Shown: one piece after another, positions 1,376 to 42,283 of the stretch | Position numbering within the stretch: the first letter of the stretch is position 1 | Layout: every line of letters starts with the position of its first letter | IMG/VR virus record: IMGVR_UViG_3300045125_000155 | Length of the DNA: 64,000 nucleotides | From: a virus | Direction: 5' to 3' (one strand) | Notes under the pieces: generated by a model | Database searches by the model: none | What the model was told of the DNA's origin: nothing | What the model saw: only the letters and a program-made list of their open reading frames with translations | Position numbers and translations under genes: made by a program

Positions 1376-2161
1376 TCACACACGCTCTCACCCATTATAT
1401 ATCGCTTTCCCTATTATAATGGGTGACCCCCACACGCCAAACGTATACCATCCAAACACCAAACAATAACAATGTTCGGTTGGCTTGCGTCGAAACTTTA
1501 CGCCCGAAAGTGAAAGCACCCCGCATCATGGCGGGGCGCGATTCGTTCGGCTGAGGGTCGGGTTATGCTTCCTCGACCCAGACGGGGATCTTCTCCTTGC
1601 TCGGCTTGCCGATCTCCTCGGCGTACTTGTCGCCGCCCTTGCTGCGGATCTTGATCACGGGTCAGGATGCAGGCTGTTCCAGTCGCCACGGAACACGGGG
1701 GCCTGTCCCGTCGTGTGGATCGTCTTGGCGGTCAACTGGGCCTGCTGAGCGGTCATGGGCGCACAGTTCAACACACACTTCCTCGACCCAGCGGAACGTG
1801 TGAATGGGGCTGTCGCCCATGATGACCGTATACTGGGGTTCGGGCTGATTCTTGTAGCGCATTCTGCACCACGATCTCCACAGCCACTTCCATAGCCAAG
1901 TCTTGATCTGCCATACGCAAGCGATCCTTTCCGCCCCTCGTGGGGGCTGGTTGTGTACCCTTGCAGCTCCAACGCGAAACTTAGTCCGAATCTGGGCGTT
2001 GTGATGCACAGAGAGTCTGTATCGAAACTTTAGTCCGAATCTTCGTTCGCCAACGCCCAGTTATCAAGTGCTGCTTCGTCCCGATCTGCGTCACAATCCA
2101 TGAGAATCTCCTCGTTTACGCCAGCGTGAGGCCCTGCTCCGCCGCCACCCGCTTGACCGTA

Positions 2162-2443
2162 TCAGCGGCCCACAGATCCGTCCGCCAGCACGTCGAAGAA
2201 CTCCTGCATGGCCTTCTGGCTGAACCGTGCGGGGGCCGCGTGCGTGGCCTTGTAGCCCGTGTAGGCCGTGCGAATCTCGAACGATCCCTCGATCTTCACG
2301 GGAACGACGCTTACCAAGTAGTAAGGCATTGAAGGCAACCGGTCGTTCACGTAGTCGGGCGGTTTGTTGTAACTAGCCGTGACCTCGATGAACGTGAGGG
2401 GATCGGTCGTGTTGTAACGCTTTGCGAGTCGTCGGAGTTTCAT
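2162..2443 (-). CDS. Hypothetical phage protein
   Basis: 93-aa ORF preceded by a junction motif at about 2466. Confidence 0.7.
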   Translation of the reverse strand: MKLRRLAKRYNTTDPLTFIEVTASYNKPPDYVNDRLPSMPYYLVSVVPVKIEGSFEIRTAYTGYKATHAAPARFSQKAMQEFFDVLADGSVGR

Positions 2444-2482
2444 GCGTGCTGCTCCTGCAAGCGGATGTTTAGTCCGAATCTG

Positions 2483-2749
2483 TCACTTCTGGGGAATCAA
2501 ATCGTGCTGCACAATCAGCAAGTCGTGACCTCCAGCGGCGATGCTGTTGCTGTCAAGCGTGCCATGCCGCAAGCGGAGCCACTCGGAGCGGGAAGGCAAG
2601 CCAACGTGATGCGGGTACGTCATGCCATGCTTCCACTCGTGCGGCATGACGGTCCAGCGGCCCGTGTGCATACACGCCGCAAAGCCACGGGCGAAGATTG
2701 CTGCCTCGTCGTAGGATGCCATGCCCTTCGCAAGACGCACCAGCCGCAT
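2483..2749 (-). CDS. Hypothetical phage protein
   Basis: 88-aa ORF whose stop lies immediately before the motif at 2466-2479. Confidence 0.55.
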   Translation of the reverse strand: MRLVRLAKGMASYDEAAIFARGFAACMHTGRWTVMPHEWKHGMTYPHHVGLPSRSEWLRLRHGTLDSNSIAAGGHDLLIVQHDLIPQK

Positions 2750-3187
2750 TCGCCTTCTTCATGCTAGTCGTGCGTTGCGCGTCACTAAGCATCAGGAATG
2801 GGCGCGGAAGTGTGCCACGGGCGCATCGTCATAGTCGGGGTTGTACCCGATGTATGTGCGAGAATAGCAATCTCGTCGATAGTGCCGATCAGGTGGTGGT
2901 GAATCATGCTCAAAGATTTCTACGCGAAACTTTAGTCCTGTAATCAATCATTTATTTGCGCGAGAATAATCATTTATTTGCGCGAATAATGCGCATAAAT
3001 ACGTGCCTCACGCACGTGCGCGTGCGGCCTGGCGGCGTGGCTGGGGTCACCCATTATAATACGTCGGGTTCTGTCGTGTCACCCATTATATTCAAGTGAT
3101 TATAATGGGTGTGAACTCAACGCACGAACTAAGGCAGAACATGATTCTGCCCTGTTCGTTTGGTTGGATTGAAACTTTAGTCCCGAA

Positions 3188-3586
3188 TCAGCCCCACTGA
3201 CGGCTGCCCTGCGTCGTGTGCGAACCGGGCGTTTCCTCGACCGTCACGTAGTACGATTCCTCGCCGTCCACTTCAGGAAGGAAGTCGCTGTCCAGCCCGC
3301 GCTGCTCCAGCCACTCCAACTGCTTGCGGCAACCCTCGCTGAACGCCCGCTTAGCGTCCTTGTTGAGCTGCTCGGCCAACGCCTTGATCTTCTCGACCAA
3401 CGCATCGGCATCCTCGTCGCTGCTGACGAGCTGGTAGGCGACCAACTCCACGTCCTCGCCCCACCAGCCGCCCTCCTCGGGACCGCCGTAGAACGGAGTG
3501 CTGACGTAGAGAGACACGTACGACCGCCTAGCGGGCGTAGCGTTGGCACAGAGAGAGAAGAACGCTTCGGAAAGGTGGTTGTTCAT
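3188..3586 (-). CDS. Hypothetical acidic phage protein (FYGGPEEGGWW motif)
   Basis: ATG at 3586 is 18 nt from the motif at 3605; stop abuts the motif at 3171. Confidence 0.8.
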   Translation of the reverse strand: MNNHLSEAFFSLCANATPARRSYVSLYVSTPFYGGPEEGGWWGEDVELVAYQLVSSDEDADALVEKIKALAEQLNKDAKRAFSEGCRKQLEWLEQRGLDSDFLPEVDGEESYYVTVEETPGSHTTQGSRQWG

Positions 3587-3710
3587 GCTCAATGTCTCTG
3601 GTTTGAAACTTTAGTCCAAATCCTGCGCAGTGGTACAGTGGATCAGTGGGCCGCGCAGTGTTACACCGCCTGCATACGACGCTGGCTCTCGATGTATTCG
3701 TTCGCAATAC

Positions 3711-4410
3711 TCAGCACGTTGGCGCGACACTCGCTCTGCATGGCGTTGAGCGTATCGCTGACGCGATAGCGTTCGCCGTCAGCGCGATCTCGATGATGCT
3801 CGACAACTTGTAGACGACGAACATGATCTCATTGCCATCGCTCAATCCCTGATTCGTGGGCTTCGAGCGGGCCGCAAGGAAGGGTTCGACCGCCTCATCC
3901 GAAACTTTAGTCCCATCCTGCAACGACAGATACTCGGCCTGACCCTTGGCCTTGAAGATGAACCGCAGGTACGCCTCACCGTCGTCCTCCGAGTCCTTGT
4001 GGACCACGAGTGCCGTAGGGTGGCCTTCCGCGTCCAGAATCGGGCGGAACCATGCTGAACCACGGCGGAAGCGAGACTGAATCTCGACCGTCATGTCGGC
4101 TTCCGAAAGCGGCTCGATGTTCGCCTCGATGCGCTCTTCGATGATCTCACGCCGCAGGGCGTTGCTCACCATGCGATGATACAGGTTGCCCGTGTCATCG
4201 GTCTTGCCACCGATCAGGCCGTTTGACTTGTTGATCTTGGTGATGGTCAGGCCGTCGCCCAACTTACGTCCTGCGAGGAACGGATTGCGAGTGCCGTCCT
4301 TGCTCTTGGCGTTACAGCCGCGGCTCGACCGTGCTGACCACGCTGACAATCGTGGTGGTCGTGATACTCACGAGGATTGTTCGGAGTTCGTTCAGAGTGA
4401 TGGTGTTCAT
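3711..4410 (-). CDS. Hypothetical phage protein (one frameshift near the 5' end)
   Basis: ATG at 4410 is 18 nt from the motif at 4429; joins the 3711..4349 ORF after an indel near 4320. Confidence 0.7.
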
Positions 4411-4519
4411 GCACTTTCGCTTCTGCGCGAAACTTCAGTCCGATTTCTGTGTGCTATCAATCGTGCCTGGTGTGCGAAGCGCGCGCGACCTAGGGGCGTT
4501 CGATGCCTGGGGTCACCCA

Positions 4520-4849
4520 TTATAATACCAAGGTGGTCGCACCCATTATATTGAGGCTTGCACCCATTATATTTGAGCCGTACAAAGACTGAACAGCATC
4601 GGTTAGGACGCTGTTCGTTGGAGGACGAGGTTGTGTGTTGCTTTGAAACTTTGGGCCCGGAACGAAGATGTTCTCCCACGCCGTCCAGACGGCGGCAAGG
4701 TAGGCCGCATCACTCATCATGCGAACCAGAGTTTGGGCTGTGTCGTGGTTGACAACGTGTGGACGGTCGTTGGTGACTGGAACGCTCAGAAGGCCATTGA
4801 GAGCGTCGATGCCATCTTCGATTTCTTTGGCGGTGTACGTGGTGTTCAT
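4520..4849 (-). CDS. Hypothetical phage protein (3' end uncertain)
   Basis: ATG at 4849 is 18 nt from the motif at 4868. Confidence 0.6.
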   Translation of the reverse strand: MNTTYTAKEIEDGIDALNGLLSVPVTNDRPHVVNHDTAQTLVRMMSDAAYLAAVWTAWENIFVPGPKFQSNTQPRPPTNSVLTDAVQSLYGSNIMGASLNIMGATTLVL

Positions 4850-5136
4850 GCTCATGCGTTAGCGAATGAAACTTTGGTCCAGAAATCGGAATGATTCATC
4901 GCCTGCATGGCAATCATCAGCAGGGCGTAGACAACGAAATCGATCAGAGCCAGTTCCTCATCGTATTGGTATTTGACAATCATCCCAGCACGCTGATTGT
5001 GGCGAAGAAGGCCACGATTCCAAGAAGGCACGAGAAGGTAATCACGCCAATCAGGTCAAGACGGTTATTGCGGGCTTGCTGATTCATTTCGGCTCCTTTG
5101 CGCAGTGGTACAGTGGATCAGTGGATGCGCAGTGGC

Positions 5137-5448
5137 TCAGTGGCTCGGCGTTGCGAGTTTAGGGTCAGCATAGACGCGAACCGCAAACACATACTGGCTC
5201 ACGCTAGAGTCCCTGTAGGCGAGCATCTCGGCGTGAATGGCGTTAGCATCCTCAAGGGTGTCGCAGAGGATGTAGCCACGCTCGTAAGCGGCCTTGCCAT
5301 CCTTCTCACCCATGCGAGTGTTGAGGAAATGCTTGGCAGCACGCTTGCCGATGGTGACGTACTCCAACCGTTGCACCCAGAACAGAACGACAGCGTTGGC
5401 AAAGGGGGTGCGGCGCACGAAAGGATTGACGGTGGATTCGGTGTTCAT
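5137..5448 (-). CDS. Hypothetical phage protein
   Basis: 103 aa; motif 18 nt upstream, AAGGA RBS-like sequence. Confidence 0.8.
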   Translation of the reverse strand: MNTESTVNPFVRRTPFANAVVLFWVQRLEYVTIGKRAAKHFLNTRMGEKDGKAAYERGYILCDTLEDANAIHAEMLAYRDSSVSQYVFAVRVYADPKLATPSH

Positions 5449-5483
5449 ATCTAAATCCTTCTGCGCGAAAGTTTAGTCCCAAA

Positions 5484-5783
5484 TCAGGTTTCCATGTCGA
5501 TCATGGTGCCTTCAGGAAGTTCCTTGAGTCGTTGCATGAACACTTGCTCGGCGTGCTTATCAGCATCATCGTTGGAATCATCATCGCGGTCAAGCCAGCT
5601 GGTGATGCCACTATCGGGCGAACCGATGTTTGCATACACGTCGTGAGCAAGGATCAGGGTGTGGCGAGAATCGCCCCACGACACATTATCACCGATTGCG
5701 GACGAAACCGCTTCGGCCCAATCTTGGCTGATATTTGCGGTGAGGTCGCTCCAACTGACGTAGGTGACGGTCTTGAGTTTCAT
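5484..5783 (-). CDS. Hypothetical phage protein
   Basis: 99 aa; bounded by motifs at 5802 and 5467. Confidence 0.8.
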   Translation of the reverse strand: MKLKTVTYVSWSDLTANISQDWAEAVSSAIGDNVSWGDSRHTLILAHDVYANIGSPDSGITSWLDRDDDSNDDADKHAEQVFMQRLKELPEGTMIDMET

Positions 5784-5819
5784 ATCTATTTCCTTCTGCG
5801 CGAAAGTTTAGCTCCAGAA

Positions 5820-6056: not shown

Positions 6057-6077
6057 GGCGGTTCTCCACGGATGATG

Positions 6078-6778: not shown

Positions 6779-7088
6779 TGTGTTCTCCGATGCACAAATG
6801 CTTCTGCACGAAACTTTGAGTCCGATTTATGACGAAAGGCGCAGGACAACTTTCGCCATCCTGCTACCTATGAACACCAACCGCCACTTATCCACACAAT
6901 GTGGATAATACGTGGACAAGTATGAAACCAGGTGTGATCTACGAAGTCATCATGCACATAGATTTGTGCGTGAAACTTTAATCCAGAATGGATGTTGGTG
7001 ACGGCGATGGTCTGAGTCACCCATTATATATCAGAAAGCATCGTGTCACCCATTATATTTGAGGGATGCAGAATTGAGGTGGCACCCA

Positions 7089-7571
7089 TTATATTTTATG
7101 CGAAAAAATTGCGTTTGGAATATGTTTGAAACGCCAACACGCCGTGGAAACGGCGTGCAGCGTGCAGGAGGAAAATTTGTAGTCCAAAGGAACGATAGAG
7201 GCGGTCATCGAGACTTCGCTCTTGATGTTCATTTCCGCAGCAAGAGGATCACCGCCATAGTTCTCAATTTGTTCGCGTTTGAGTTCGCACACTTCAAGAT
7301 GTCCAGCGAAAACCTGTACCTGCTTGGCTCCCGTGAGAAGGGCGAGGGCAAGACTAATGGCCTGCTCGACCGTCATGCCACAAATCTTGGGAAGCATTTC
7401 GATCACATACTCATCGGTATGGACCGGGCTGTCGTGAAGAATCACGGCGTACTGCCTCAAAGGTTCGTGCTTGGGCACCTGCTTGACCTTGATCTTCTGT
7501 CCAACATCAGCCACAGCATCGTTGTTGCGATCGTACTCGTTGTAACCGAAGGGAATGTCGTGTTCGCTCAT
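7089..7571 (-). CDS. clpS: ATP-dependent Clp protease adaptor ClpS (planctomycete-like; true stop may be near 7180)
   Basis: YAVILHD..HTDEYVIEML.KI and ELKREQI..YG.DPL...SM.ASI.P match the ClpS fold; ATG 18 nt from the motif at 7590. Confidence 0.8.
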   Translation of the reverse strand: MSEHDIPFGYNEYDRNNDAVADVGQKIKVKQVPKHEPLRQYAVILHDSPVHTDEYVIEMLPKICGMTVEQAISLALALLTGAKQVQVFAGHLEVCELKREQIENYGGDPLAAEMNIKSEVSMTASIVPLDYKFSSCTLHAVSTACWRFKHIPNAIFSHKI

Positions 7572-7656
7572 AGTCAATACCTCTCAATCTAAATTTTAGC
7601 CGCGTTTCTGCGCAGTGGCACAGTGGATCAGTGCTAGCGCAGTGTTACAGTGGATG

Positions 7657-9326: not shown

Positions 9327-10422
9327 TGTCGCTCCTGAAGTTCATGTTAGAGTTGCCTTGTCTACAATGTTAGCAAGAAATTTTAGTCGCAAAAAAACTG
9401 TGACTACGAGTTTTTGCCGTTGCCCCCGAAGGGGATTGTTACAAAGAGGCGCAGGTCGATTTGAACGACCAACCTACCGGGTGTCTCGACTTTCCCACCT
9501 CCGCCCAAGTAGGTTTCATGCCTAGTTTCTTTCGCGCGAAAATTTAGTCCATTTTCATGGTCAACCGCTGCGCACGCACAAGCCAACAATCGTCAGCATG
9601 AATCACATGAAACCCCTTGGTGGGCCATCCGCTTCGATACCCTTGAAACAGAAAGCACATTTGGTGCCGTTGTCAGCACACTCAGTCTTGGGGTCTTCGT
9701 TGATGGCTTCTCGCAGCAAATTCTTGAGCGTCTCATTCTCAGCAGACAACGCATCACAGCGAGTTTTGAGGTTCTTGACATTTACGACAGCATCCAGCAA
9801 TGCTTCAACCTCGGGCTGTGCTTGCTGGCGTGCGATTCGACCGCCGTAAAAACTTCAAGAAGCAAGTCGAAACACTTGGCCTTGTTCTCGATGGACGAAT
9901 CGTTGCTCATGGCTTTTTGCGACCAATTTTTCACGATTACTAATGTTGCGGGCTTGACAAATACGAAGCAGAAGGTCGTGATGCTTCACGCCCAATTCGT
10001 GCCACTCATTGATTTCGTCCAAGATTTTCGTGATGACACCAAGCATTTCAGTCTTGTTGTCAATTTTTGTGGCATCAATGATTTTTTACGCCTTGTGGTT
10101 CAGCACAGACTCGTAATTGGGCATCATCTGCGGGAAATTGCCCGCCAGTCTGTTCAGTTCTTCGTTGGTGAAATCAATTTGCATATCTAAAGCCTTCTGC
10201 GCAAATTTTAGCCCGATTTATCAACTCACTAGGGCTCTTGCAGCAAGCCATCTTCGAGCATGATTTGCTTGGCCTTCTTCATGCCAAGGTCAGCCACAAC
10301 CAGGCAAGCAGCTCCGACCAAGCACCGAATCATCGGATCGTTGCTGCGCCGATTCTTTCGGATTGCTGCTTCGAGCAAAGCACCAACGTTAGCCATCTCT
10401 GCCCACGTCTGATCACTCTTGC

Positions 10423-10668
10423 TCACACTGTCCAAGTAGATCTTTCGCAGTTCACTTCGCAATCGAAACCTCCTTGTTGTCGTTGCTGATGATATTCCAA
10501 AGGGCGAGTGGCTGATTCAATCGCCGTCGCCTCCAAGAATCGCATGTGATGTTCAGTCAGCGTGTAATCACCACGCGAGCAGAGTCCAGCATGAATCTGC
10601 GGCACGGTTGCAAGCATAAACTTCTTGAAGTTGGGGTCTTGCTTCTTCTTGCTCTTGGTGTTCTTCAT
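10423..10668 (-). CDS. Hypothetical phage protein
   Basis: ATG 18 nt from the motif at 10687. Confidence 0.6.
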   Translation of the reverse strand: MKNTKSKKKQDPNFKKFMLATVPQIHAGLCSRGDYTLTEHHMRFLEATAIESATRPLEYHQQRQQGGFDCEVNCERSTWTV

Positions 10669-10714
10669 ACACACTCGGTTCTGTGCGAAAGTTTAGTCCG
10701 AAATCGGCAATGCT

Positions 10715-11191: not shown

Positions 11192-11441
11192 TCAGTCGAA
11201 CCCGCGACATCCGCAGTAATACTGAATCGAGCGGCCTATCAGAACGATGCTCGAAGAAGGGCAGATTGGTGTTGCTGGGCTTGATGCTGTTGCACGAACC
11301 ACACTTGGCTTCACGGCCAATGAACGAAGGGGTGGTGTCAACGATGTTCCAGCCGTTGTTGGGGCTGCAAATCGCACAACACGGCATACCTTCGGTCGTG
11401 GCGTTGGCGGCATGTCCACACTTCATCATGGGCTTGTTCAT
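11192..11441 (-). CDS. Cys-rich putative zinc-binding protein (frameshift near the 3' end)
   Basis: MKCGH, CCAIC, KCGSC and, after an indel, YYCGCRGFD; ATG 18 nt from the motif at 11460. Confidence 0.65.
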
Positions 11442-11475
11442 GCTCAAACCTTTCTGCGCGAAACTTTAGTCCGAT

Positions 11476-11741: not shown

Positions 11742-12008
11742 CTATGCTCCTCCCACAAGGTGATTTCGTTGACTATTGAAGCGACTGAAACTTTGTTTGC
11801 TTGAATAAGCACAGAGGAAGCGGATTTGCTGCTCAGATAGCCGCAACATGCTGGCCTCGAACATGAGCATCACAATGTCAAGAGGCAAAGATTGTCCGAA
11901 GTAGAACCAATCGCCTCCATCATACTTGAGATTGAGGGGCCATGCTTCTTCTGCAATCCGCAACACGATGAGTTGCAATCCGCTAGGTGAAAGAGTGCTG
12001 TTTTCCAT
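11742..12008 (-). CDS. Hypothetical phage protein
   Basis: 88 aa; motif 18 nt upstream. Confidence 0.7.
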   Translation of the reverse strand: MENSTLSPSGLQLIVLRIAEEAWPLNLKYDGGDWFYFGQSLPLDIVMLMFEASMLRLSEQQIRFLCAYSSKQSFSRFNSQRNHLVGGA

Positions 12009-12032
12009 ACTATTCTTTTTCTGCGCGAAATT

Positions 12033-12443
12033 TTAGCCGCAAATCTGCGTAGCGGATTCCAAATAGTGGCGTTCCCAGCCGACCGGCTTGCAAACAAAGA
12101 TGTCGCCGCTCTTGAACTTGACGACATCACCAACATTCATGCTCGTGTGCTTGAGGCCAAGAGCTTTGATGAGCGAATTTGCCTCGCCGCAAGGCGACCA
12201 GGCAAACGCTTGCAGATTCTCGTAAATGTATTCAAGAGTCTCATGCTTGCTGCGAGAGGGATCAGCCGAGGTTGTGCCCAGAAGCGTGTGAGTAAATGTC
12301 AGCATCGCAGGATCGAACGGCACGTCGTTGAACATAGAAAGCAGCAACGAACCGCTGTTAGACGGCTTCATGTACCAGATTTCCACGTCGTCACCAGCAG
12401 GAAAGGCAGCACAGTTATTGAGATTTGCGAGGAGGTTGCTCAT
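12033..12443 (-). CDS. YodL-like domain protein
   Basis: C-terminal HTSMNVGDVV....FVCKPVGW resembles the YodL-like signature. Confidence 0.55.
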   Translation of the reverse strand: MSNLLANLNNCAAFPAGDDVEIWYMKPSNSGSLLLSMFNDVPFDPAMLTFTHTLLGTTSADPSRSKHETLEYIYENLQAFAWSPCGEANSLIKALGLKHTSMNVGDVVKFKSGDIFVCKPVGWERHYLESATQICG

Positions 12444-13257: not shown

Positions 13258-13473
13258 GCACTAACTCCCGATTGTCGTTCGGGTTCGACCATTCGGCTAC
13301 CTACCGACGAGGGGCAACTGGGCTTATGCCATTCCTATGCTACTTCCGATATAAACCCGAACGAAGTCACTCAAGACTCTGGCTTACAAGGCCGTTCGAG
13401 TGGGCTCTACCGAGGGAAACCATCGCCCCTGAATCCCTCGCCCCAGCACTATCGTAGTGGGCTACGTGTATTC
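13232..13473 (-). ncRNA. Candidate structured small RNA (about 240 nt)
   Basis: No credible ORF; 13275-13285 pairs with 13354-13364; motif upstream at 13492; terminator at the 3' end. Confidence 0.5.
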
Positions 13474-13519
13474 AACGTGAGTTTTCTGCTGCAAAGTTTA
13501 GGCCCTAAAGTCGCATGGA

Positions 13520-13689
13520 TGTTAGCAGTAAATTTTTTAGAAACCATCCGACACTGGTGCACCAGTAGTCGGACAGCGAATAACGAGACCTCTGTGTGCC
13601 TACTCCGTATGGATTCAGGGTCCACCCGTCCCTAACACTCACGCCGTTGGAGCCGAGAGGATCTAGCCACAGATGTTAGTCTCGTTGTC
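13520..13689 (-). ncRNA. Candidate structured small RNA (about 170 nt)
   Basis: 13582-13589 pairs with 13679-13686; hairpin 13547-13573; flanked by motifs at 13708 and 13492. Confidence 0.5.
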
Positions 13690-14386
13690 AGTTCTAGATT
13701 TCTGTTGCAAAGCTTAGTCCCTAAAGTCGCATCACCAATGACTCACCCATTATAATTCACTTATACGCTACATTCTACGCCCTCACCCATTATATTAGAA
13801 ATCGCCTCTAAAGATGTTTTAGGCATCTATAAAGGCTTACGCCATCGTTGTGAGGTTGAAGTATGTTTCGCGGCTTAATTTGAAATTTTAGCCGCTTTTT
13901 GTGATTTGCACACCAAGATCCTTGGCGGCATCCTCAAAATAGCGGCTTTTACACGACTCGACTGAGGCATTCTTGCTCGTAAGCAGGTTCCTGTGCAACT
14001 GGATAGTTCCTGCGGCACGATCAAAAGAACAAGTCATCGGCATGTGAACGCCAAACACAGACTGAGTACGAACAAAAACCTTACCATCGACAACATGCCG
14101 TCCGTAGTAGTTCTGCGACGAAGCATGATCGACGGCCAAGCACATATTCGCCCAGATTTCCAGGTTGTCAAGATTTGTATAATCACAAAAACTGTTGATG
14201 TAGTTTTTGACTGATCTCGAAATGCACCAATGAAGGCATTTCGTACAACCTCTTCAACCTTATCATTAGCATCGAGTTTGAAAAACATAGAACTCGTTTC
14301 AACAGCAGCCGCAGTGGATGCGCAGTGGTTGCTCCTCAAAAATTTGCGCAGTGGCTCAGCACCTCAAAAGCCGCAGTGTAACACTT

Positions 14387-14788
14387 TCAATCTTCACTCG
14401 GCAGAAGTGCAACCCAGCACAAGTCCTTGCCGTTCAACGATCCGAGTTTGACATAAATACTGAAGCCACTCGGAAAGCGATCAAACGGAAAATCCGTGTA
14501 TTCGATCTTCTGCGAGACAACAACGTTTCCATTACCGTCGTCGCAAGTGGCAACAGCCATGAAGCCCTGTTCTGTGAGGTGCTTGAGCGTCCAGTTCTGG
14601 AAATCTTCCAACTTGCCTCGTGCCTTGCTTTGATGCGATGCGATCAGGTCAACAAACCAACTCAATCCATTCATGCAGACGTACGTAACGCCATCTGTCA
14701 TTGCGAATTTACGGAATGGACCCCAAGCGTAACCTTCAGTTCCATAAAAGTGAGAAAGGGCAGCAGGCGTGAGATTGTCGGTCATCAT
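14387..14788 (-). CDS. DUF6876-like protein
   Basis: FYGTEGY...MTDGV, FQNWTL, CDDGNGNVV.SQKIEYTDFP and LLPSED match my recollection of this family; motif 18 nt upstream. Confidence 0.7.
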   Translation of the reverse strand: MMTDNLTPAALSHFYGTEGYAWGPFRKFAMTDGVTYVCMNGLSWFVDLIASHQSKARGKLEDFQNWTLKHLTEQGFMAVATCDDGNGNVVVSQKIEYTDFPFDRFPSGFSIYVKLGSLNGKDLCWVALLPSED

Positions 14789-14832
14789 GGTCGTTGCTTC
14801 TTCTGTGAAATTTGTAGTCCAAAAAGATGCGT

Positions 14833-15404: not shown

Positions 15405-15773
15405 TTACGCAGGATTTTCGAGAGAAAACCTGTTATCGAAGCACAACTTGTACGTTTCGGTATCAAAGTCATGCTCGACCCAATTATTGTCACAATCAAC
15501 ACCATGCACCGTGATAACGACTCCATCCGTCTTGGTTGGGTTGTTGTGCTTCATACCAACCGGCATATGCTGAGGGAACTGAGACAAGAACAAAATCAGT
15601 TCAGCAATCGTTGTTGGCGTAGGAAAGGTTGTAGGAATCCACAAGCCATCACACGGAAGATTCAGCGAATAACGCTCATCCTCAGTAAAGATCGTTGCGG
15701 CTTCCTGCTCCACCCAACCATCTTCATTACTCCAGAAAGCCTTGAGATTCGTGCTGATGATTTGGAAATTCAT
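15405..15773 (-). CDS. Hypothetical phage protein
   Basis: 122 aa; motif 18 nt upstream. Confidence 0.75.
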   Translation of the reverse strand: MNFQIISTNLKAFWSNEDGWVEQEAATIFTEDERYSLNLPCDGLWIPTTFPTPTTIAELILFLSQFPQHMPVGMKHNNPTKTDGVVITVHGVDCDNNWVEHDFDTETYKLCFDNRFSLENPA

Positions 15774-17700: not shown

Positions 17701-17734
17701 AAAAACCCCCGACATCTGGTTAGGACATCGGGGG
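17701..17734 (-). terminator. Intrinsic terminator
   Basis: CCCCGATGTC..GATGTCGGGG hairpin followed by TTTTT on the minus strand. Confidence 0.7.
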
Positions 17735-20063: not shown

Positions 20064-20112
20064 ATACTATAACTCTTGATCGAAATTTTAGTCCAATATC
20101 TGCAAACCCGAA

Positions 20113-33898: not shown

Positions 33899-34159
33899 TC
33901 AGCACCTCCAAAAACGGTGCCATAAGGAACTGCGAACAAACGTATAGGTGAATCCATCAGGCAAACAACGAGTGGCAGCATCCAAATCGTTGCTGATCGG
34001 ATGACGAGAATAAAAGGCAATTTCGCCGTTTTCGCTACGAAACCATCCCTCATTGTTATCGGTCACATAATCAGCGTTGAACTCGTATCCCTCATCCCTA
34101 GCAATCCAATAACGACATTCTTCTGTCGTCAATTCTCTTGGATTTTTAGTGGCCTGCAT
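33899..34159 (-). CDS. Hypothetical phage protein (likely frameshifted 3' end)
   Basis: ATG 18 nt from the motif at 34178. Confidence 0.6.
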   Translation of the reverse strand: MQATKNPRELTTEECRYWIARDEGYEFNADYVTDNNEGWFRSENGEIAFYSRHPISNDLDAATRCLPDGFTYTFVRSSLWHRFWRC

Positions 34160-34193
34160 GGCTGTCCACTCCTACTTGAAATTTTAGTCCTAA

Positions 34194-35410: not shown

Positions 35411-35629
35411 TTAAATTTCAGACCAGTTGGTGTATCCAGTTTTCTTGCTATATTTTCTCTGTTTTATTTCATGCTTTTCCTTTACTGGAAAATTACATAG
35501 TGGACATTTATTTTTCTTTGCAGAACATTTGGTAATGTCTTTATATCCTTTATAAAGGGCGGATATTGTCATACAAATTGCAAACAAAGATAAACAAAAC
35601 ACTGTAATCCAACCAAATATCTCTCCCAT
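35411..35629 (-). CDS. Small membrane protein with CxxC, inside the tRNA insert
   Basis: MGEIFGWITVFCLSLFAICM..., KCPLC; its TAA stop is the anticodon of the displaced tRNA half. Confidence 0.6.
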   Translation of the reverse strand: MGEIFGWITVFCLSLFAICMTISALYKGYKDITKCSAKKNKCPLCNFPVKEKHEIKQRKYSKKTGYTNWSEI

Positions 35630-35650
35630 AATTATTTTACCATTTTCAAA

Positions 35651-35723
35651 TAGGCGTGGTGGGACTCGAACCCACACTTTACGAATTTTAAATTCGTTGT
35701 CTCTGCCATTGGACTACACGCCC
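35651..35723 (-). tRNA. tRNA-Leu(UAA), short variable arm
   Basis: GGGCGTG/CACGCCT-A acceptor; ACGAA-TT-TAA-AA-TTCGT anticodon arm. Confidence 0.85.
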
Positions 35724-36366: not shown

Positions 36367-36399
36367 AACTCTGCAATTTTACACATCAGAAAATGCACA

Positions 36400-36930: not shown

Positions 36931-36949
36931 AGCTTTTCCTTTAAGTAAA

Positions 36950-37031: not shown

Positions 37032-37039
37032 AAACCATC

Positions 37040-37335: not shown

Positions 37336-38972
37336 ATTATTACCTTTAATGTGAATCTTGATTTTTCGTTAGGAATGCTTGAGCCGTGCCAATTGCAATC
37401 TCATACTCATCAAGCGTCATTTTCAAAGCCTGCGAAACTTTAGTCTTAAACTCAAGACGATCCAGCGACTTTTGTGAATGAAGCACCTCGTCCATGGCAA
37501 TCAAAACACGTAGACTCTGCAAAATTGTATCATCTTCGAGCGGTGGATCAAGACTTTCGCCCAGAATTTTCCGGATCGACAATCTGAACCATGTCGTCCT
37601 CGACGTATGGATTTATGATATAGTTGGCGACTTCTTCAATGAAGTTGCTATCAATACCAATGTATCCGCCATCTATTTGATGCACATTTAGCGTAATGAT
37701 CTGACCAGGATTATGATTATCGTTGAGCGTGACACTTGTTATATATTTACTTGTTTTCATATTGTACTGTTCTTGCTGTCTTGAAATACTCCGTTCGCGT
37801 ATATTATCATGAAGAGCATAGTTGATCTCGTAGGCGTCATCAATTTTTTGCACAAAATCTAAAACTCGCACCTATGTCATCATTGACTAGGCTTTTGGAC
37901 CGAAATTTTAGTCCCGATCTTATCGACAAGAGCCTGGTGAATCGCATCTGAAGGACACCCATTATATTCAAGCCAGCCACTATCTTAGCATATGCACAAA
38001 GGTCTCTCATTGAACTTGCATATTTATGATACGTATATGCTCCACTATTACGATACTCAACAATCGCCCAACTTTGTGTTAACGCCACAATTGCAAACCT
38101 CACTTTGTGTGGCTCGTTTGTTTTCTGTAAGTACATGAGCTTCTTTTTCCTGCCAATCAGTCAAAAAACATAAAACGTTATCGATGAGAATTTTCTGTAT
38201 CTGTTTCCATATGTAATCTCTTATTGTGAAAATAAAAAACGCCTGAAACATAAGTTTCGGCGTTATGATGTTTTTTCTGCTGACTATCACTTATCGGACA
38301 GAACTTGACCGATGAATTCCAATCGTTTGTGCATACTTCATTACTTTCTGCATCATGTTTTCAGACATATAACCTGACACATCATTACCATAAGAATTTT
38401 GTAAGATTTACAAATGACTTCCAATACATGTTGTCTGTATTGTGTAGTTTTAACTGCTCACCACCAATAGTGACGCATTTACTATATTCTGCAAATCCAA
38501 AGTAAGCCATTTGCAGATTCTTTAACAAACATCCAAATGCAATGATCTGTGTAGGCGAAACAGTGTAAAGATTGTTTCGGTATAAGACTAAAGCTTGTGC
38601 ATGTAACTTGAATTCGTTCAAGTCTTCATCTTTTTGAACCGCACAATCCTGATCAAAAAACCTGTAAACGGGACTCGTGTACTCAAAAAGCGTTTCACAA
38701 ACCGTTTTCAGTGCTAGAAGTTTTTTGTATGTATCTTTTTTCGCGCAGAAAAGGTAAAGTGAAAATTTTCGCCACTTGACCGAAGAACTCTTCTATCAGT
38801 GGAACTAATCCCGTTTGCGCTCGAGATTATCTACTACAAGGTTCATGGCACAACTTCTTTCGTATTGTTTGATTTTTCGGATTCAATAATCTGTAGATAC
38901 TATAAGTAAAATCTTGAAAAATCAACTTCTTACGAGTGCTTTCCCTTGCTTAATCAAAACTAAACAAAATTC

Positions 38973-39668: not shown

Positions 39669-41230
39669 TCAAACCTCCAATTCTCGCATCTTGCGATAAA
39701 CCTGCCTCTCATCAAAGTGCGTGTCAATCTCAGTCAAAGTCATCGCAAACGTCTCGTTATGCATCGTCTCGACAACGTGTGCGACCTCATGCTTTGCATA
39801 TGCCATCAGACGCTTCTGACTAGCCATACTCGAAAGAAAATGTTGCAGGTTACCGTCCTCATCAACAGGATTCAACAACAGTGCAACAGCATTATCTTTT
39901 TGCATCTTCATCATCATCGCACGAGCATGATCCGAGAAAATCCAACCAATTCCCCAAACAACACCATTCATGCTGGGACGCGCCTGAAACAGTGCCTCAA
40001 AGGCATGCTCACAAGCAATTTTCCAGAACATCAACAACTTGTACATCACGCTGCCTTTGTTGATGCTGCGTCCGTTGCGATGCAGTGTAACCCAATTCGC
40101 AGGATTGTAGTTTTCAATCACACGACGAACTTTTTCGTTGTTCGTATCATCAACAATCACAACGTCAGGATAACGCTTGTTTGCAATCTCTTCCCTAACC
40201 TCCTCCAACTGCTTCATCTGCTTGTCTGAAATTTTAGTCGCAATTCCAACTCCGCCACCATTCACCGACACCAATGCCGTCACCCTTTCAGCTTCCTGCG
40301 CAGTGGTACCTGCAGCCTTTTCAACAACTTCCTCCGCCTGCCTGGTTGCCTTGCTAGACTTTGGTCCGGTAAAAAACAGACCCCTACCACGAACAGTCAT
40401 GTTCTTGCGAGTGAACTTGGGCTTGAGTGCCGACACCGTTTCAACCGCAAGTTCTTGCGTGAAACGATTCAAGACACCCATGTATCGCGATTGCATGCCG
40501 TCACGATTGGCCGTCAGGACCTCTCGACTCTTGCCAACGTAAACCTCAACAATAATGTGTGATTTGCTATTGATCCACTCAAGATACATCAGAGCATGCA
40601 TTCACACGCACAGCCAACATATTCTCATGCGAATAAGGCGCAGTTCTTACGCACATACACATCAGCAAATGCGACATCATCCTTTTCCAGATGACGAGTC
40701 ATGTTGCTCGACTTGTTCCATTCCGTAAACCTGATTCCATTCACAAAGACATGACAATTCATGTCGCTGAACATCAGATAACGCTCAAGCTATGAATTCA
40801 AGTCTGAAAGCGACTCGTCTTCCATCTCGACCGTCACGTTCGTTCCAGCAAGAGCGTCAGTCTTCTGAATCTCGTACTCGCCGCCTTCACCAATAACCAG
40901 GTTATCAAGCGTATGGATTTTGTACGACTTCATCGAGAAGCACGTCAGAATACGCGCCCGACCAAAGCCTCCAACCTGATCTTCGCCACCTTTGGTCGTA
41001 GCTCCCAGACTGAAGTACACGTTCTCCAAGATCTCGCGAGTCATGCCGCAGCCGTTGTCGCGGAATTCAACTCGAATCACATTATCAACTTGTTCCAATT
41101 CAATATCGATGCGAGTTGCACCAGCGTCGATGCTGTTCTGGAAAAATTCACGCCAAAAGGCAAACTGCCATTGGCTGTACATCCGACGCTCTTTGACAAA
41201 AAAACTCTTGGGAATACTGATGTTAGGCAT
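39669..41230 (-). CDS. GHKL (HATPase_c) ATPase with C-terminal HExxH motif (split by indels at about 40600-40790)
   Basis: REFFQNSIDA, FRDNGCGM, GATTK..VGGFG; C-terminal AKHEVAH. Confidence 0.8.
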
Positions 41231-41304
41231 TTGTTTACTCCTCGATCTGTGCCTTAGCCTTTCAAGCCAAAATTTTAGTCCAAAAGGCAAAAATCGGATC
41301 TGAC

Positions 41305-41337
41305 AAAAGAAAACCCCAACCGTTAGGAAGGGGTTTG
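41305..41337 (-). terminator. Intrinsic terminator
   Basis: AAACCCC...GGGGTTT hairpin followed by TTTCTTTT on the minus strand. Confidence 0.6.
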
Positions 41338-41365
41338 GTGATCTGTCAGACTGGGTTGACAGATA

Positions 41366-41938
41366 TTAGACGGGAAGGCTGGGGTCAGTGGCAGCGACCT
41401 GCTCTTCGGTAGCGTTGAAGCTTTCGAGGAACTTGGTGATGCCGTTGCTCGACTGCCACACGCCATGCTTGACGTTCTCGGCAACCTTGGCCTCGCTCAG
41501 CTTGCCCAGCGTCTGGCTGACCATCACGTTGAACGAAGCAGCGTTCGAGGTGTAACCAAGCTTCTCGACGCCAGCGATAATGTCGCTCACGCTCATCGGC
41601 TCGTTCGCCTCGGCCAACACCTGAGCAACAGCATGCATCAGGCTGATGCCGTTCGTGCTGCGGTTGCGGCTGCCCTTGGGACGGCCACGCTTGCCGCCGC
41701 TCGCCTTACGCTCAGTCTTGGGCTTGGCCTTGCGAGTGGCCTTCGGAGCCGCAGCCTTGTTCTTCGCGCGCTTGGGACGGCCCCGCTTGCTCGATGCCGA
41801 CTTCACCGTCTGAGTCGTGCCGCTGATCGACTCGATCACGCGAACCACGTTGGCGAGTTCGGCCTCCAGCTGAGCACGACGCTCATTGGCAGCCACCAGG
41901 ATCGGGTTCAAAACAGTCATGTTAACAGTCTTCGTCAT
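41366..41938 (-). CDS. Nucleoid-associated-like protein: coiled coil, two AT-hooks, winged helix
   Basis: KRGRPK twice in a Lys/Ala-rich linker; SLMHAVAQVL..MSVSDI..GY..VSQTLGKL..GVW. Confidence 0.8.
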   Translation of the reverse strand: MTKTVNMTVLNPILVAANERRAQLEAELANVVRVIESISGTTQTVKSASSKRGRPKRAKNKAAAPKATRKAKPKTERKASGGKRGRPKGSRNRSTNGISLMHAVAQVLAEANEPMSVSDIIAGVEKLGYTSNAASFNVMVSQTLGKLSEAKVAENVKHGVWQSSNGITKFLESFNATEEQVAATDPSLPV

Positions 41939-42283
41939 ATATATCTCCAAGCTGCAAACCTCGTGTGCCGCCTCAGCTACTACTCTTCGCTTCGTTCAGC
42001 CACGTTTGTGAATTTAGCTCCGAAAATTTAGTCGCGTTTCGGTTGTTGCTAATTCTGCCATCACTTTAACAGCTTCATCCGTCGCAGGCAAGCGTTTTTT
42101 CCTCGTTTTTGTCTAAGATTTATACGAAACCCAGTTTTTACGTTAAAAACGCCACTTTTATAATCAAAATTTTTGCCATAAAAGCTTTTTTCGCGCAAAA
42201 AGACAAAAATCCAACCCAAACAAAAACAAAAAGCCCCATAGCCGAAGCTACAGGGCTCTTTGCAACACCAATCACTACCTTCT

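What the first reader, a model, noticed from the sequence alone, without database searches (positions are those of the whole stretch)
1491..42035. About 55-copy gene-junction motif with rigid geometry: candidate dedicated promoter class driving leaderless mRNAs
Seen: the sense-strand motif GGACTAAA(A/G/C)TTTC occurs about 55 times, in one orientation, nearly always at gene junctions, and disappears after about 42 kb. In about 24 copies the final C is followed by exactly 18 nt and then ATG (e.g. motifs at 3605, 4429, 5467, 5802, 10687, 11460, 12027, 14807, 15792, 16968, 20082, 22663, 23622, 24553, 25015, 34178). All 24 have A at -11 relative to that ATG, while most other spacer positions vary. 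The same A is present in copies heading the two small non-coding units (13708, 13492) and a leadered gene (41269). It is absent from copies buried in CDSs (3901, 40228). Copies also lie just downstream of terminators (17683, 29099, 41269), where re-initiation is needed. Established: -11A is the key melted base in sigma-family promoters, and leaderless mRNAs start at the A of AUG. Inference: this is a -31..-19 element plus -11A, read by a phage sigma/RNAP or activator, giving dozens of small genes their own mostly leaderless transcript. Alternative: an RNA-level translation-initiation element just outside the 30S footprint, with the -11A being part of an SD (several spacers contain AGGA/GAG).
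Basis: partly seen in the sequence, partly recalled or inferred. Interest (0 to 1): 0.88.

Follow-up and report, generated by a model that had tools for sequence, protein, structure and literature searches.

The report
Huge-phage promoter family with leaderless starts
About 53 same-strand copies of a 13-base signal sit in front of the small genes of a large phage. They are most likely that phage lineage's own promoters, built so that many messenger RNAs begin exactly at the start codon, but no RNA data yet prove it.

Summary
GGACTAAANTTTC lies on the minus (gene) strand: 23 exact copies (0.01 expected) and 53 in all between 1492 and 42034, against 0-1 on the other strand. ATG follows the final C by exactly 18 nt in 23 copies, and all 23 have A at -11.

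The motif and this geometry recur in uncultured huge-phage relatives (370-494 kb contigs and fragments). One lineage uses a variant, GGCTAGACTTTC. No held paper contains the motif.

Four indirect lines place an RNA 5' end at the A of the ATG:
- The base before it is a pyrimidine in 60/60 ATG+18 copies. Copies without an ATG there are also enriched for pyrimidine-purine at that position.
- ATG+18 genes lack strong Shine-Dalgarno sites (8%, random 9%), whereas motif genes with later starts have them (46%).
- Starts lie at +18 or at +30 and beyond, with none at +22 to +29.
- Terminator-like hairpins abut the motif five times more often than random positions.

A 98%-complete relative has sigma genes, one FliA/WhiG-like, and no detectable phage RNA polymerase. 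The only RNA run gave sparse contigs, so no start site is measured.

Verdict: a new variant of phage-specific promoters. This scan has flagged the same kind in other phages.

The parts
1492..42034 (-). Whole array: 53 copies of GGACTAAANTTTC, about one per 765 bp, on the strand of the small genes. Copies not listed separately below (first base of each on the + strand): 42022, 37434, 35344, 32846, 32777, 30373, 29099, 27470, 26743, 26216, 25679, 21992, 20931, 19399, 15314, 13882, 12463, 10202, 9377, 3171, 2463, 2024, 1492.
34157..34190 (-). Module: motif, 18 nt, ATG (86-codon ORF); A at -11, C at -1
24994..25027 (-). Module: motif, 18 nt, ATG (75 codons)
24532..24565 (-). Module: motif, 18 nt, ATG (141 codons). 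Pfam DUF6915 profile position 1 aligns to residue 2, so this ATG is the true start.
23601..23634 (-). Module: motif, 18 nt, ATG of the UvdE-like endonuclease (307 codons)
22642..22675 (-). Module: motif, 18 nt, ATG (145 codons)
20061..20094 (-). Module: motif, 18 nt, ATG (137 codons)
17662..17695 (-). Module: motif, 18 nt, ATG (35 codons), directly behind the terminator at 17736-17704
16947..16980 (-). Module: motif, 18 nt, ATG (158 codons)
15771..15804 (-). Module (3-mismatch motif CGGCTAAAATTTA), 18 nt, ATG (122 codons)
14786..14820 (-). Module with a 14-nt indel variant (GGACTACAAATTTC), 18 nt, ATG; A at -11
12006..12039 (-). Module: motif, 18 nt, ATG (88 codons)
11439..11472 (-). Module: motif, 18 nt, ATG (112 codons)
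10666..10699 (-). Module: motif, 18 nt, ATG (81 codons)
9517..9550 (-). Module: motif, 18 nt, ATG, but only a 26-codon frame
7569..7602 (-). Module (CGGCTAAAATTTA), 18 nt, ATG of a ClpS-domain protein (160 codons)
6951..6984 (-). Module: motif, 18 nt, ATG, but only a 4-codon frame
5781..5814 (-). Module: motif, 18 nt, ATG (99 codons)
5446..5479 (-). Module: motif, 18 nt, ATG (103 codons)
4847..4880 (-). Module: motif, 18 nt, ATG (109 codons)
4408..4441 (-). Module: motif, 18 nt, ATG (32 codons)
3584..3617 (-). Module: motif, 18 nt, ATG (132 codons; the gene has 63% GC)
2905..2938 (-). Module: motif, 18 nt, ATG (40 codons)
37881..37914 (-). Motif, 18 nt, ATG, but a 3-codon frame and A at -1: the one exception to the pyrimidine rule in this window
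16434..16479 (-). Leadered type: the predicted +1 (16448) is the first base of AAAGGA (the SD), and ATG lies 12 nt after it (129-codon ORF)
41228..41281 (-). Leadered type: C then A at the predicted -1/+1, a 20-nt leader holding AGGAG, then ATG (146 codons)
13687..13720 (-). Copy heading an ORF-free unit; A at the -11 position, T then G at the predicted -1/+1; no Rfam match
13471..13504 (-). Copy heading a second ORF-free unit; same features
3901..3913 (-). Perfect 13-mer inside a coding frame; lacks A at -11 and the pyrimidine-purine step
40228..40240 (-). Copy inside a 310-codon frame; lacks A at -11 and the pyrimidine-purine step
4645..4657 (-). Degenerate copy inside a coding frame
42226..42263 (-). 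Strong intrinsic terminator (17 pairs) closing the upstream unit. The array begins about 190 nt after it, and no sigma70-like site was found in between.
17704..17736 (-). Intrinsic terminator whose T-tract abuts motif 17695-17683
27494..27523 (-). Terminator-like hairpin abutting motif 27482-27470
29146..29184 (-). Intrinsic terminator 35 nt upstream of motif 29111-29099

Best explanation
The 13-mer is the upstream half of a lineage-specific phage promoter. It occupies -31 to -19. Behind it come a G+C-rich block (about -18 to -14), an A-rich tract holding the conserved A at -11, and a pyrimidine/purine step at -1/+1.

Transcription would start 19 nt after the motif's final C. In about 23 copies that base is the A of an ATG, so the mRNA is leaderless. 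In most other copies it is the first base of a short leader (12 nt or more) that often opens directly with a Shine-Dalgarno sequence, or of a non-coding RNA.

The promoter is probably read by host core RNA polymerase directed by a phage-encoded specificity factor. Candidates are the sigma-70-family proteins seen in a near-complete relative, or an activator that replaces the -35 contact.

Shown: the motif, its strand bias, its geometry, its conservation and co-variation in relatives, and the sequence statistics. Inferred: that position +19 is a transcription start, that translation is leaderless, and who reads the motif.
For: 1. Enrichment and strand bias: 53 copies against 0-1 on the other strand, 23 of them exact where 0.01 is expected.

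2. Exact +18 spacing recurs in independent relatives: window 22/53, G001 19/64, G003 12/40, G004 14/32, and G005 21/35 with the variant motif GGCTAGACTTTC. Every p value is below 1e-12. Orthologous G003/G004 promoters keep the motif at 100% identity at 10 of its 13 positions while their flanks diverge.

3. In ATG+18 genes the -1 base is a pyrimidine in 60/60. Strong SD (dG of -6 or lower) occurs in 8%, against 9% in random 18-mers. Motif genes with later ATGs have strong SD in 46% and a pyrimidine at -1 in 57%.

4. In copies without an ATG nearby, a pyrimidine-purine step sits at exactly the same position in 49/97, against a background of about 0.22. The per-genome p values run from 8e-5 to 0.04. 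In G005 it is 10/14.

5. The first ATG opening a frame of 50 codons or more lies at +18 in 66 copies, at +22 to +29 in none, and at +30 to +39 in 17. About 13.6 would be expected in that gap (P = 1e-6). SDs start at or just after the predicted +1.

6. All 59 canonical start codons at that position are ATG, none GTG or TTG. The DUF6915 profile starts at residue 2 of one such ORF.

7. Terminator-like hairpins end within 14 nt upstream of 14/232 copies, against about 1.2% of random positions (p = 1.5e-6). Six of those copies are ATG+18 genes. The array itself starts behind a strong terminator.

8. G001 is 98% complete. It gave no hit for the T7-type RNAP family or for the beta/beta-prime core domains. 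It does encode a 280-aa FliA/WhiG-like sigma with regions 2, 3 and 4, and a divergent 307-aa sigma.

9. There is a precedent: phage phiYS40 makes most of its middle and late mRNAs leaderless (PMC3594737).
Against: - No 5' end was measured. The one RNA run holds only sparse 150-425-nt contigs at depth 2-3. One of them spans a motif without a break, which fits read-through as well as anything.
- There is no canonical -10 hexamer: T at -7 is only about 20-30%.
- The 13-mer lies where sigma-70-type promoters have their spacer, not their -35 element.
- The strict A at -11 falls to 52% in G001.
- The motif itself contains TA(A/G)ANT, which fits the minimal -10 pattern TAnnnT, with the variable bases at the least conserved positions. 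This favours the rival start near the motif's 3' end.
- Many spacers are purine-rich (mean SD energy -3.6 against -2.3 for random), so weak SD use from read-through RNA is possible.
- There are exceptions: SDs inside the spacer at window 2463 and G003 17454, three ATG+18 copies that open only 3-26 codons, and one relative's tRNA that begins 7 nt after a copy.
- The sigma genes were found in relatives, not in this 64-kb window.
Confidence: 0.55

Rival explanations
1. The motif is an extended -10-type promoter in itself. TA(A/G)ANT (motif positions 5-10) is the -10 hexamer, GGAC is an upstream extension, and TTC plus GCGC is a G+C-rich discriminator. Transcription would start at the C-A step 4-6 nt after the motif. 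ATG+18 genes would then have 13-15-nt leaders rather than none.
For: - T, A and T at the -12, -11 and -7 equivalents are 96-100% conserved. The variable bases (the central N, and A to G in the G005 variant) fall at the least conserved hexamer positions.
- The promoter scanner repeatedly picked TAAAAT inside the motif as a -10 hexamer.
- The GCGC block ends in C-A at a suitable distance.
- Purine-rich AGGA/AAGG tracts lie at -13 to -8 from many ATGs.
Against: It does not explain:
- why starts fall at exactly +18 or at +30 and beyond, with none at +22 to +29;
- why -1 of the ATG is a pyrimidine in 60/60;
- why the same pyrimidine-purine step recurs in copies without an ATG;
- why ATG+18 genes have no more strong SDs than random sequence, while later-starting genes behind the same motif do.

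Also, no -35 element is conserved 17 nt upstream, and the 96-100% conserved C and TTC flanking the hexamer are unusual for a plain -10.
Confidence: 0.17
2. The element acts in RNA. It is transcribed as part of polycistronic messages and serves one of two roles. It could be an SD-independent translation enhancer or ribosome-tethering site at a fixed distance from the AUG (like the T7 gene 10 epsilon sequence). Or it could be the recognition site of an endoribonuclease that cuts 18 nt downstream and so creates 5'-AUG mRNAs.
For: - Rigid spacing to a start codon is typical of translation signals.
- The upstream gene's stop codon often lies only 4-6 nt before the motif.
- ATG+18 genes lack strong SDs.
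- An RNA-library contig runs through motif 21992-22004.
- From my own recollection, untested here: the T7 epsilon sequence UUAACUUUA resembles CUAAACUUU and lies about 16 nt before the AUG.
Against: - More than half of the copies have no start codon at +18, and some head RNA genes or leaders with their own strong SD.
- A pure enhancer does not predict the pyrimidine-purine step at +18/+19 in those copies, or the empty +22 to +29 zone.
- Copies, including ATG+18 ones, sit directly behind strong terminators, where little read-through RNA would arrive.
- The processing variant predicts the same 5' ends as the promoter model, but it needs upstream promoters that are not seen behind those terminators.
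- No hairpin or other conserved structure accompanies the motif: only one reverse-strand match, and no complementarity conserved in relatives.
Confidence: 0.13
3. The motif is chiefly a DNA recombination or cassette-boundary site, like an integron attC or the recombinogenic promoter cassettes of T4-type hyperplastic regions. Small foreign genes would be swapped through it, and any expression role would be secondary.
For: - GC content differs gene by gene (0.33-0.63), and single-gene GC islands are bounded by motif copies.
- Neighbouring copies share the same central base.
- In relatives, similarity is higher downstream of the motif than upstream.
- The array is one-directional and ends abruptly.
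Against: - There is no inverted-repeat partner and no attC-like R/L box structure.
- The divergent 346-aa ORF beside the array is not an integrase; it gives only a weak Fic hit.
- A recombination site does not predict the 18-nt register to ATG, the pyrimidine at -1, the SD contrast or the terminator adjacency.
- Homologous recombination between repeated promoters could produce the mosaic as a by-product.
Confidence: 0.05

Closest known systems
Leaderless middle and late transcripts of Thermus phage phiYS40, and the '-10 next to the ORF' promoters of Deinococcus-Thermus (PMC3594737; PMC12340547)
   Same: A whole class of phage genes whose promoter stands in a fixed register with the ATG. The mRNA is predicted to begin at the start codon, and no SD is used.
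   Different: Those promoters use a recognisable TAnnnT -10 hexamer a few bases before the ORF and host sigma A. Here there is no T at -7. The dominant signal is a 13-mer at -31 to -19, and the same promoter also heads leadered genes and RNA genes. In phiYS40 the 5' ends were measured; here they were not.
Sigma-28 (FliA/WhiG) promoters: -35 TCTAAAG at -36 to -30 and -10 GCCGATAA at -15 to -8, with the A at -11 flipped out (PMC12784957)
   Same: The motif core CTAAA(G) equals the sigma-28 -35 core. In relatives a GC pair lies at about -15/-14 and an A at -11, counted from the ATG. A near-complete relative encodes a FliA/WhiG-like sigma (TIGR02479, 177 bits).
   Different: With the start at the ATG, CTAAAG lies at -28 to -23, which is 7 bp too close. 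The G+C block follows the core after 4-5 bp instead of 14. Keeping sigma-28 spacing would put the start 7 nt inside the ORF, which the DUF6915 alignment excludes. The sigma scores just below its family's cut-off (189.6).
T4 middle promoters (MotA box at -30 plus a sigma-70 -10 element, read through sigma appropriation) and P1 late promoters (a box centred near -22 plus a -10 element, Lpa-dependent); both from my own knowledge
   Same: A phage-specific box replaces the -35 element, is reiterated in front of many genes of one temporal class, and is read by a phage protein together with host polymerase.
   Different: The box sequence differs, and it is centred at -25. There is no TAnnnT or TATAAT -10 element. 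Neither T4 nor P1 couples the promoter to the start codon. No MotA, AsiA or Lpa homologue was sought or found.
Promoter-early stem-loop cassettes (PeSL) of T4-type hyperplastic regions (my own knowledge; Arbiol et al. 2010)
   Same: Reiterated promoters, sometimes behind a terminator hairpin, stand between small orphan genes in a mosaic region, and might also drive modular gene shuffling.
   Different: PeSLs are host sigma-70 early promoters without a fixed register to the ATG. Shuffling at the present motif is only suggested by the GC mosaic.
phiKZ early and middle promoters (PMC8244752)
   Same: A jumbo phage with dozens of reiterated phage-specific promoter motifs. The middle-class motif is centred about 22 nt upstream of the start.
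   Different: phiKZ promoters are read by phage multisubunit RNA polymerases. Its leaders are typically 31-40 nt, and no leaderless transcript was found. No such polymerase was detected in relative G001, though very divergent subunits could escape Pfam.

Membership tests
Host sigma-70 (-35/-10) promoter | TTGACA-like hexamer 17 +/- 1 bp upstream of the -10 hexamer | tested here: not met
   No information content at the -35 position for either candidate start. In relatives, the positions just upstream of the motif are not conserved.
Host sigma-70 (-35/-10) promoter | TAnnnT hexamer at -12 to -7 relative to the transcription start | tested here: inconclusive
   Not met if the start is the ATG: T at -7 is 20-30% and T at -12 is 3%. 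Met if the start lies 4-6 nt after the motif, because TA(A/G)ANT lies inside it. The start site is unmeasured.
Sigma-28 / FliA promoter | -35 core TCTAAAG | tested here: met
   The motif holds ACTAAA(G/C/A), which is 5-6 of 7 identical to the published element.
Sigma-28 / FliA promoter | GCCGATAA -10 element 14 bp downstream of the -35 core, with the start about 8 nt after it | tested here: not met
   The G+C block follows after 4-5 bp. The octamer position under sigma-28 spacing holds no GCCGATAA-like sequence and would put the start inside the ORF.
Leaderless-mRNA promoter class | Fixed promoter-to-ATG register, with the start codon as first transcribed triplet | tested here: met
   This covers the register only. 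ATG lies exactly 18 nt after the motif in 22/53 copies, and in 19/64, 12/40, 14/32 and 21/35 in relatives. All are ATG, never GTG or TTG.
Leaderless-mRNA promoter class | Absence of a Shine-Dalgarno sequence before those ATGs | tested here: met
   Strong SD in 8% of ATG+18 genes, against 9% in random sequence and 46% in later-starting genes behind the same motif.
Leaderless-mRNA promoter class | Mapped primary 5' end at the A of the AUG | not testable with these tools
   Only one RNA run holds the phage. It is kept as contigs, which are sparse and cannot show 5' ends.
T7-type single-subunit RNAP promoter | A phage-encoded T7-like RNA polymerase and a conserved -17 to +6 block with a fixed purine at +1 | tested here: not met
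   No PF00940 hit in the 98%-complete relative, although the controls cannot ring for this family. The base that would be +1 (the central N) is A, G, C or T.
Integron attC / cassette site | Imperfect inverted repeats (R''-L''...L'-R') and an adjacent tyrosine-recombinase integrase | tested here: not met
   No reverse-complement partner. No conservation beyond 5 nt upstream of the motif. The divergent neighbouring ORF is not an integrase.
T4 middle (MotA-dependent) promoter | MotA box (TGCTT core) centred at -30 plus a sigma-70 -10 element | tested here: not met
   The sequence is unrelated, the box is centred at -25, and there is no TAnnnT at -12 to -7. The consensus is from my own knowledge.

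The most novel reading that the evidence does not exclude
A lineage of huge phages runs a private expression channel. A phage-encoded specificity factor, possibly its FliA-like sigma used in a non-canonical geometry, fires 50-60 identical promoters that give each small accessory gene its own transcript. That transcript begins either on the AUG or on the first base of the SD. The phage's own IF3 homologue then tunes how well the leaderless set is translated, which would make a combined transcriptional and translational temporal switch. The same reiterated 36-bp stop-motif-start junction would double as the homology that lets single genes be swapped in and out.
Probability: 0.15. Interest if true: 0.8.

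Novelty: new variant of a known kind. Interest (0 to 1): 0.62.

Why it matters
If transcription really starts 19 nt after the motif, this would be among the largest sets of predicted leaderless mRNAs in any phage. It comes from uncultured huge phages whose gene expression is essentially unstudied.

It gives a precise, testable sequence rule: a 13-mer at -31 to -19, A at -11, and a pyrimidine/purine step at -1/+1. The rule can be used to:
- annotate true start codons and transcription units in these genomes;
- recognise members of the lineage;
- look for the reading factor.

The architecture does not fit the standard -35/-10 layout, so it could reveal a new way of directing bacterial RNA polymerase. 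Relatives also carry a FliA-like sigma and an IF3 homologue. That hints at coordinated control of leaderless translation, a long-standing question since phiYS40.

Practically, the motif is a compact candidate part for orthogonal expression, once its reader is known.

Tried and rejected
- Integron or attC reading: rejected. There is no inverted repeat, and the divergent 346-aa ORF is not an integrase.
- Bacteroidota '-7' promoter (TAnnTTTG): rejected. The motif is one base too long and ends in C, and leadered genes use strong AGGAG-type SDs, which that phylum does not (the consensus is from my own knowledge).
- Sigma-54 (-24 GG / -12 GC): the spacing and the GC dinucleotide do not fit. This was checked by hand only.
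- T7/T3-type promoter (ACTAAAG resembles the T3 -7 to +1): rejected. The would-be +1 is variable, and no PF00940 hit was found in G001.
- Canonical sigma-28 geometry: rejected. It would start transcription inside the ORFs.
- Hairpin between CTAAA and TTTAG in the spacer: present in a few window copies only and absent in relatives.
- Near-identical phage records: none. The published 642-kb phage LR756502, which gave the best UvdE hit, lacks the motif.
- A 14-base pattern scan of viral contigs gave only single chance hits. Adding the +18 ATG to the pattern found the relatives.
- UvdE-based loci L120-L123 lack the motif.
- Exact look-up of the window's own contig: not on record. No whole genome is held.
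- RNA evidence: one metatranscriptome, contigs only, no 5'-end information. One fold-back contig at 20903 is an assembly or cDNA artefact.
- tRNA 5' ends as start-site markers: too few and mixed, with two cases of 3-5-nt leaders from the predicted +1 and one or two conflicts.
- Rfam on the two ORF-free units: no match.
- Literature search for the motif strings: nothing relevant.
- Host prediction through the CRISPR repeat: no exact match in species genomes.
- Co-occurrence of the FliA-like sigma with the motif in other contigs: inconclusive, because those records are 11-66% complete. It did reveal the G005 variant motif.

Full report
OBSERVATION

The motif is real and lies on the minus strand, the strand of nearly all genes in the first 42 kb. 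GGACTAAANTTTC has 23 exact matches, against 0.01 expected. At up to 2 mismatches there are 50 minus-strand copies between 1492 and 42034, one on the plus strand and one weak copy beyond. A weight-matrix scan gives 53 minus-strand hits against 0-1 plus-strand hits and adds 15792 and 7590. The conserved block is a little longer in this window: (A)TTT(C/G) before the motif, and G..C..AA after it.

ATG follows the final C by exactly 18 nt in 22 copies plus the indel copy, where about 0.8 is expected (p = 5e-26). All 23 have A at -11. Nineteen of the 22 open frames of 30 codons or more. One of them (24534..24109) matches Pfam DUF6915 from profile position 1 at residue 2, so the +18 ATG is a true N-terminus.

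SETTING

The region is a dense run of small, mostly orphan minus-strand genes whose GC content varies gene by gene from 0.33 to 0.63. It also holds five tRNAs and a group I intron. The few recognisable proteins are a UvdE-like endonuclease, a ClpS-domain protein and DUF6915.

The window comes from a 115-kb contig. It has no near match among deposited phages, and no whole genome is held. A strong terminator (42263-42226) closes the upstream unit, and the array begins behind it.

RELATIVES

Homologues of one window protein lie on short contigs that carry the same motif on the gene strand (L124, L125 and L126). A pattern that includes the +18 ATG then found IMG/VR contigs of 370-494 kb and large fragments.
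- In G001 (494 kb, 98% complete) the copies at up to 1 mismatch are 32 on one strand and 1 on the other. All but one lie within 215-327 kb.
- G002 is nearly the same phage as G001.
- G003 and G004 have 25 and 20 copies, mostly GAACTAAACTTTC.

The 18-nt register is kept: G001 19/64, G003 12/40, G004 14/32. A more distant lineage, G005, uses a variant motif, GGCTAGACTTTC. It has 35 copies in 13 kb, and 21 of them stand exactly 18 nt before an ATG. Orthologous G003/G004 junctions keep 10 of the 13 motif positions at 100% identity while the flanks diverge.

The relatives also share the tRNA cluster order. The published 642-kb phage that gave the best UvdE hit lacks the motif. The literature search for the motif strings found nothing relevant.

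WHERE DOES THE RNA BEGIN?

I pooled the genomes and compared copies with ATG at +18 (class A) with the other copies (class B).

1. In class A the base before the ATG is C or T in 60/60. Among other gene starts it is 52-57%.
2. Strong SD pairing (dG of -6 or lower) occurs in 8% of class A, the same as random 18-mers (9%). It occurs in 46% of class B genes, whose ATG lies further on.
3. In class B copies with no ATG nearby, a pyrimidine-purine step occupies exactly the position of -1/+1 in 49/97, against a background of 0.22. The per-genome p values are 7.5e-4, 8e-5, 4e-3 and 0.04. In G005 it is 10/14.
4. The first ATG opening a frame of 50 codons or more lies at +18 in 66 copies, at +22 to +29 in none, and at +30 to +39 in 17. 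About 13.6 would be expected in the gap (P = 1e-6). At the onset the leader is 12-14 nt and begins with the SD itself. Examples are AAAGGA at window 16448 and AAGGAG at two G001 copies.
5. All 59 canonical start codons at that position are ATG.
6. Terminator-like hairpins with T-tracts end within 14 nt upstream of 14/232 copies, against about 1.2% of random positions (p = 1.5e-6). Six of those copies are class A.

Together these results mark the base 19 nt after the motif as an RNA 5' end that does not depend on coding. They also argue that this end is made by initiation rather than by read-through.

WHAT THE A AT -11 IS

It is invariant in this window's class A. In relatives it is 52% (G001), 83% (G003), 71% (G004) and 85% (G005), as part of an A-rich -13 to -10 tract behind a GCGC-like block. 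In class B of this window it is 14/30.

It is not an SD base. The tract is enriched (about 47% A against a 29% background) where no ATG follows, and class A has no excess of strong SDs. There is no T at -7, so no canonical -10 hexamer accompanies it.

WHO READS IT?

G001 gave no hit for T7-type RNA polymerase or for the beta/beta-prime core domains. It does have sigma-70-family genes:
- A 280-aa protein with regions 2, 3 and 4, whose best family is FliA/WhiG (TIGR02479, 177 bits, cut-off 189.6). It is preceded by an SD and by what looks, on my reading of the sequence, like a host-type promoter, but no motif.
- A divergent 307-aa sigma inside the motif region.

The published sigma-28 promoter has -35 TCTAAAG at -36 to -30 and -10 GCCGATAA at -15 to -8, with the A at -11 flipped out (PMC12784957). 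The motif core equals that -35 core. In relatives a GC pair and an A fall near -15/-14 and -11 from the ATG.

The register is wrong, however. With the start at the ATG the core lies 7 bp too close. With sigma-28 spacing the start would fall inside the ORFs. A phage sigma in an unusual geometry, or an activator occupying -31 to -19 together with a sigma, are the leading candidates. No sigma homologue lies in the window itself.

RIVALS

The most serious rival is that the motif itself is an extended -10 promoter. TA(A/G)ANT fits TAnnnT with its variable bases at the least conserved positions, and a G+C discriminator and a C-A step lie 4-6 nt after the motif. This would give 13-15-nt leaders. It does not explain the empty +22 to +29 zone, the pyrimidine at -1, the matching step in class B, or the SD contrast.

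An RNA-level element (a translation enhancer or a ruler-type cleavage site) is weakened by three points: the many copies without a start codon, the terminator adjacency, and the absence of a conserved structure. The cleavage version predicts the same 5' ends and can only be separated by their phosphate status.

A pure recombination site lacks attC features and an integrase. Recombination between reiterated promoters could still explain the GC mosaic.

DIRECT RNA EVIDENCE

None was usable. Two run searches found one aquatic metatranscriptome holding 6% of the sampled words. Laid on 12001-32000, it gave eleven short contigs at depth 2-3. One crosses a motif, and none can show a start.

COMPARISON AND NOVELTY

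A leaderless middle/late class is known in Thermus phage phiYS40 (PMC3594737), and '-10 next to the ORF' promoters are known in Deinococcus-Thermus (PMC12340547). phiKZ has reiterated phage promoters but no leaderless transcripts (PMC8244752). T4 middle and P1 late promoters replace the -35 element with a phage box (my own knowledge).

The present element shares the logic of these systems but differs from them in several ways:
- a 13-mer centred at -25;
- no canonical -10 element;
- a dual output (AUG at +1 or SD at +1);
- 50-60 copies per genome;
- a lineage of uncultured huge phages in which the motif co-varies.

Earlier notes of this scan describe comparable 'promoter in register with the ATG' motifs in other, unrelated phages. 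The kind therefore recurs, but not this motif.

I file it as a new variant of a known kind. Confidence is about 0.75 that it is a promoter and 0.55 that it starts at the A of the ATG.

Noticed in passing
window 1399-43959, minus strand (for example 7093/7057/7028, 4571/4550/4524, 3090/3058, 13794/13754, 43075/43047, 37966, 15357): A second repeat family, (GAA)TATAATGGGTG(A). It has 16 minus-strand and 2 plus-strand copies, often 2-3 in tandem 21-36 nt apart, and several lie 30-50 nt upstream of a GGACTAAA copy. It holds a perfect -10 hexamer. Relatives G001, G003 and G004 do not share it. It could be tandem host-type (early?) promoters or operator arrays.
   Followed up: partly
window 5108-5144, 3633, 7618, 14328-14363, 15918 and others, minus strand: Arrays of CCACTG(CGCA) units (16 copies of the 10-mer at up to 1 mismatch) clustered just upstream of some genes. 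They look like reiterated binding sites for a regulator.
   Followed up: no
window 1-42300: ORF GC content varies gene by gene from 0.33 to 0.63. Single-gene GC islands are bounded by motif copies (26673..26281 at 0.59, 41950..41366 at 0.60, 35677..35411 at 0.33). This suggests single-gene replacement at the reiterated junctions.
   Followed up: partly
window 1492-42034: The central variable base of the motif clusters by position: G in nearly all copies from 1492 to 6972, and A in most copies from 12027 to 41269. This fits local duplication or gene conversion, or it tracks local GC content.
   Followed up: partly
relatives: G001:C1:30899-31150, G005:C1:48742-48993, G006:C1:124030-124278: All three larger relatives encode an IF3 homologue (IF3_C, 51-53 bits, frames of 190-197 aa) but no IF1. 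IF3 is listed as antagonising start selection on leaderless mRNAs (Tedin et al. 1999, seen only as a reference title in PMC12340547). A phage copy could therefore bear on a leaderless gene class.
   Followed up: no
L182-L184 (G005:C1:207001-256820), reverse strand: A variant motif, GGCTAGACTTTC: 35 copies within 13 kb (one per about 370 bp), and 21 of them stand exactly 18 nt before an ATG. The -10 region consensus there is G-A-A-A/G-T-A-A at -12 to -6, with C at -1 in 85%.
   Followed up: yes
L155-L167, L126; window 20113-37032: The tRNA clusters inside the motif regions share their order (several Leu, then Trp, Val, His, Ile, Val, Met) in G001, G003, G004 and L126. The region is therefore syntenic across the lineage although most protein genes differ.
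   Followed up: partly
window 59699-61684: A CRISPR-like array of about 28 repeats of roughly 36 nt ending in ATTGAAAC, in two repeat subtypes. The repeat core has no exact match in one genome each of 185,579 species, so it gave no host clue.
   Followed up: partly
window 28577, 30081, 30240, 32262, 35268, 36512, 18316 (minus strand): Near-consensus TTGACA-N16-18-TAnnnT promoters lie in the tRNA and non-coding RNA part of the region. The host polymerase evidently uses standard -35/-10 signals, which coexist with the GGACTAAA class.
   Followed up: no
window 2442-2475; G003 (L161-L164 joined, reverse strand) copy at offset 17454: Two exceptions to the rule. In each a degenerate or variant motif is followed by a strong SD inside the 18-nt spacer and a start at +19 or +17. 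They look like junctions that have switched to SD-led translation from read-through RNA.
   Followed up: partly
window 42803-43843, plus strand: A divergent 346-aa ORF just beyond the array has a weak Fic/DOC hit (E = 0.008, below the cut-off). A Fic-like gene also flanks the related locus L126.
   Followed up: no
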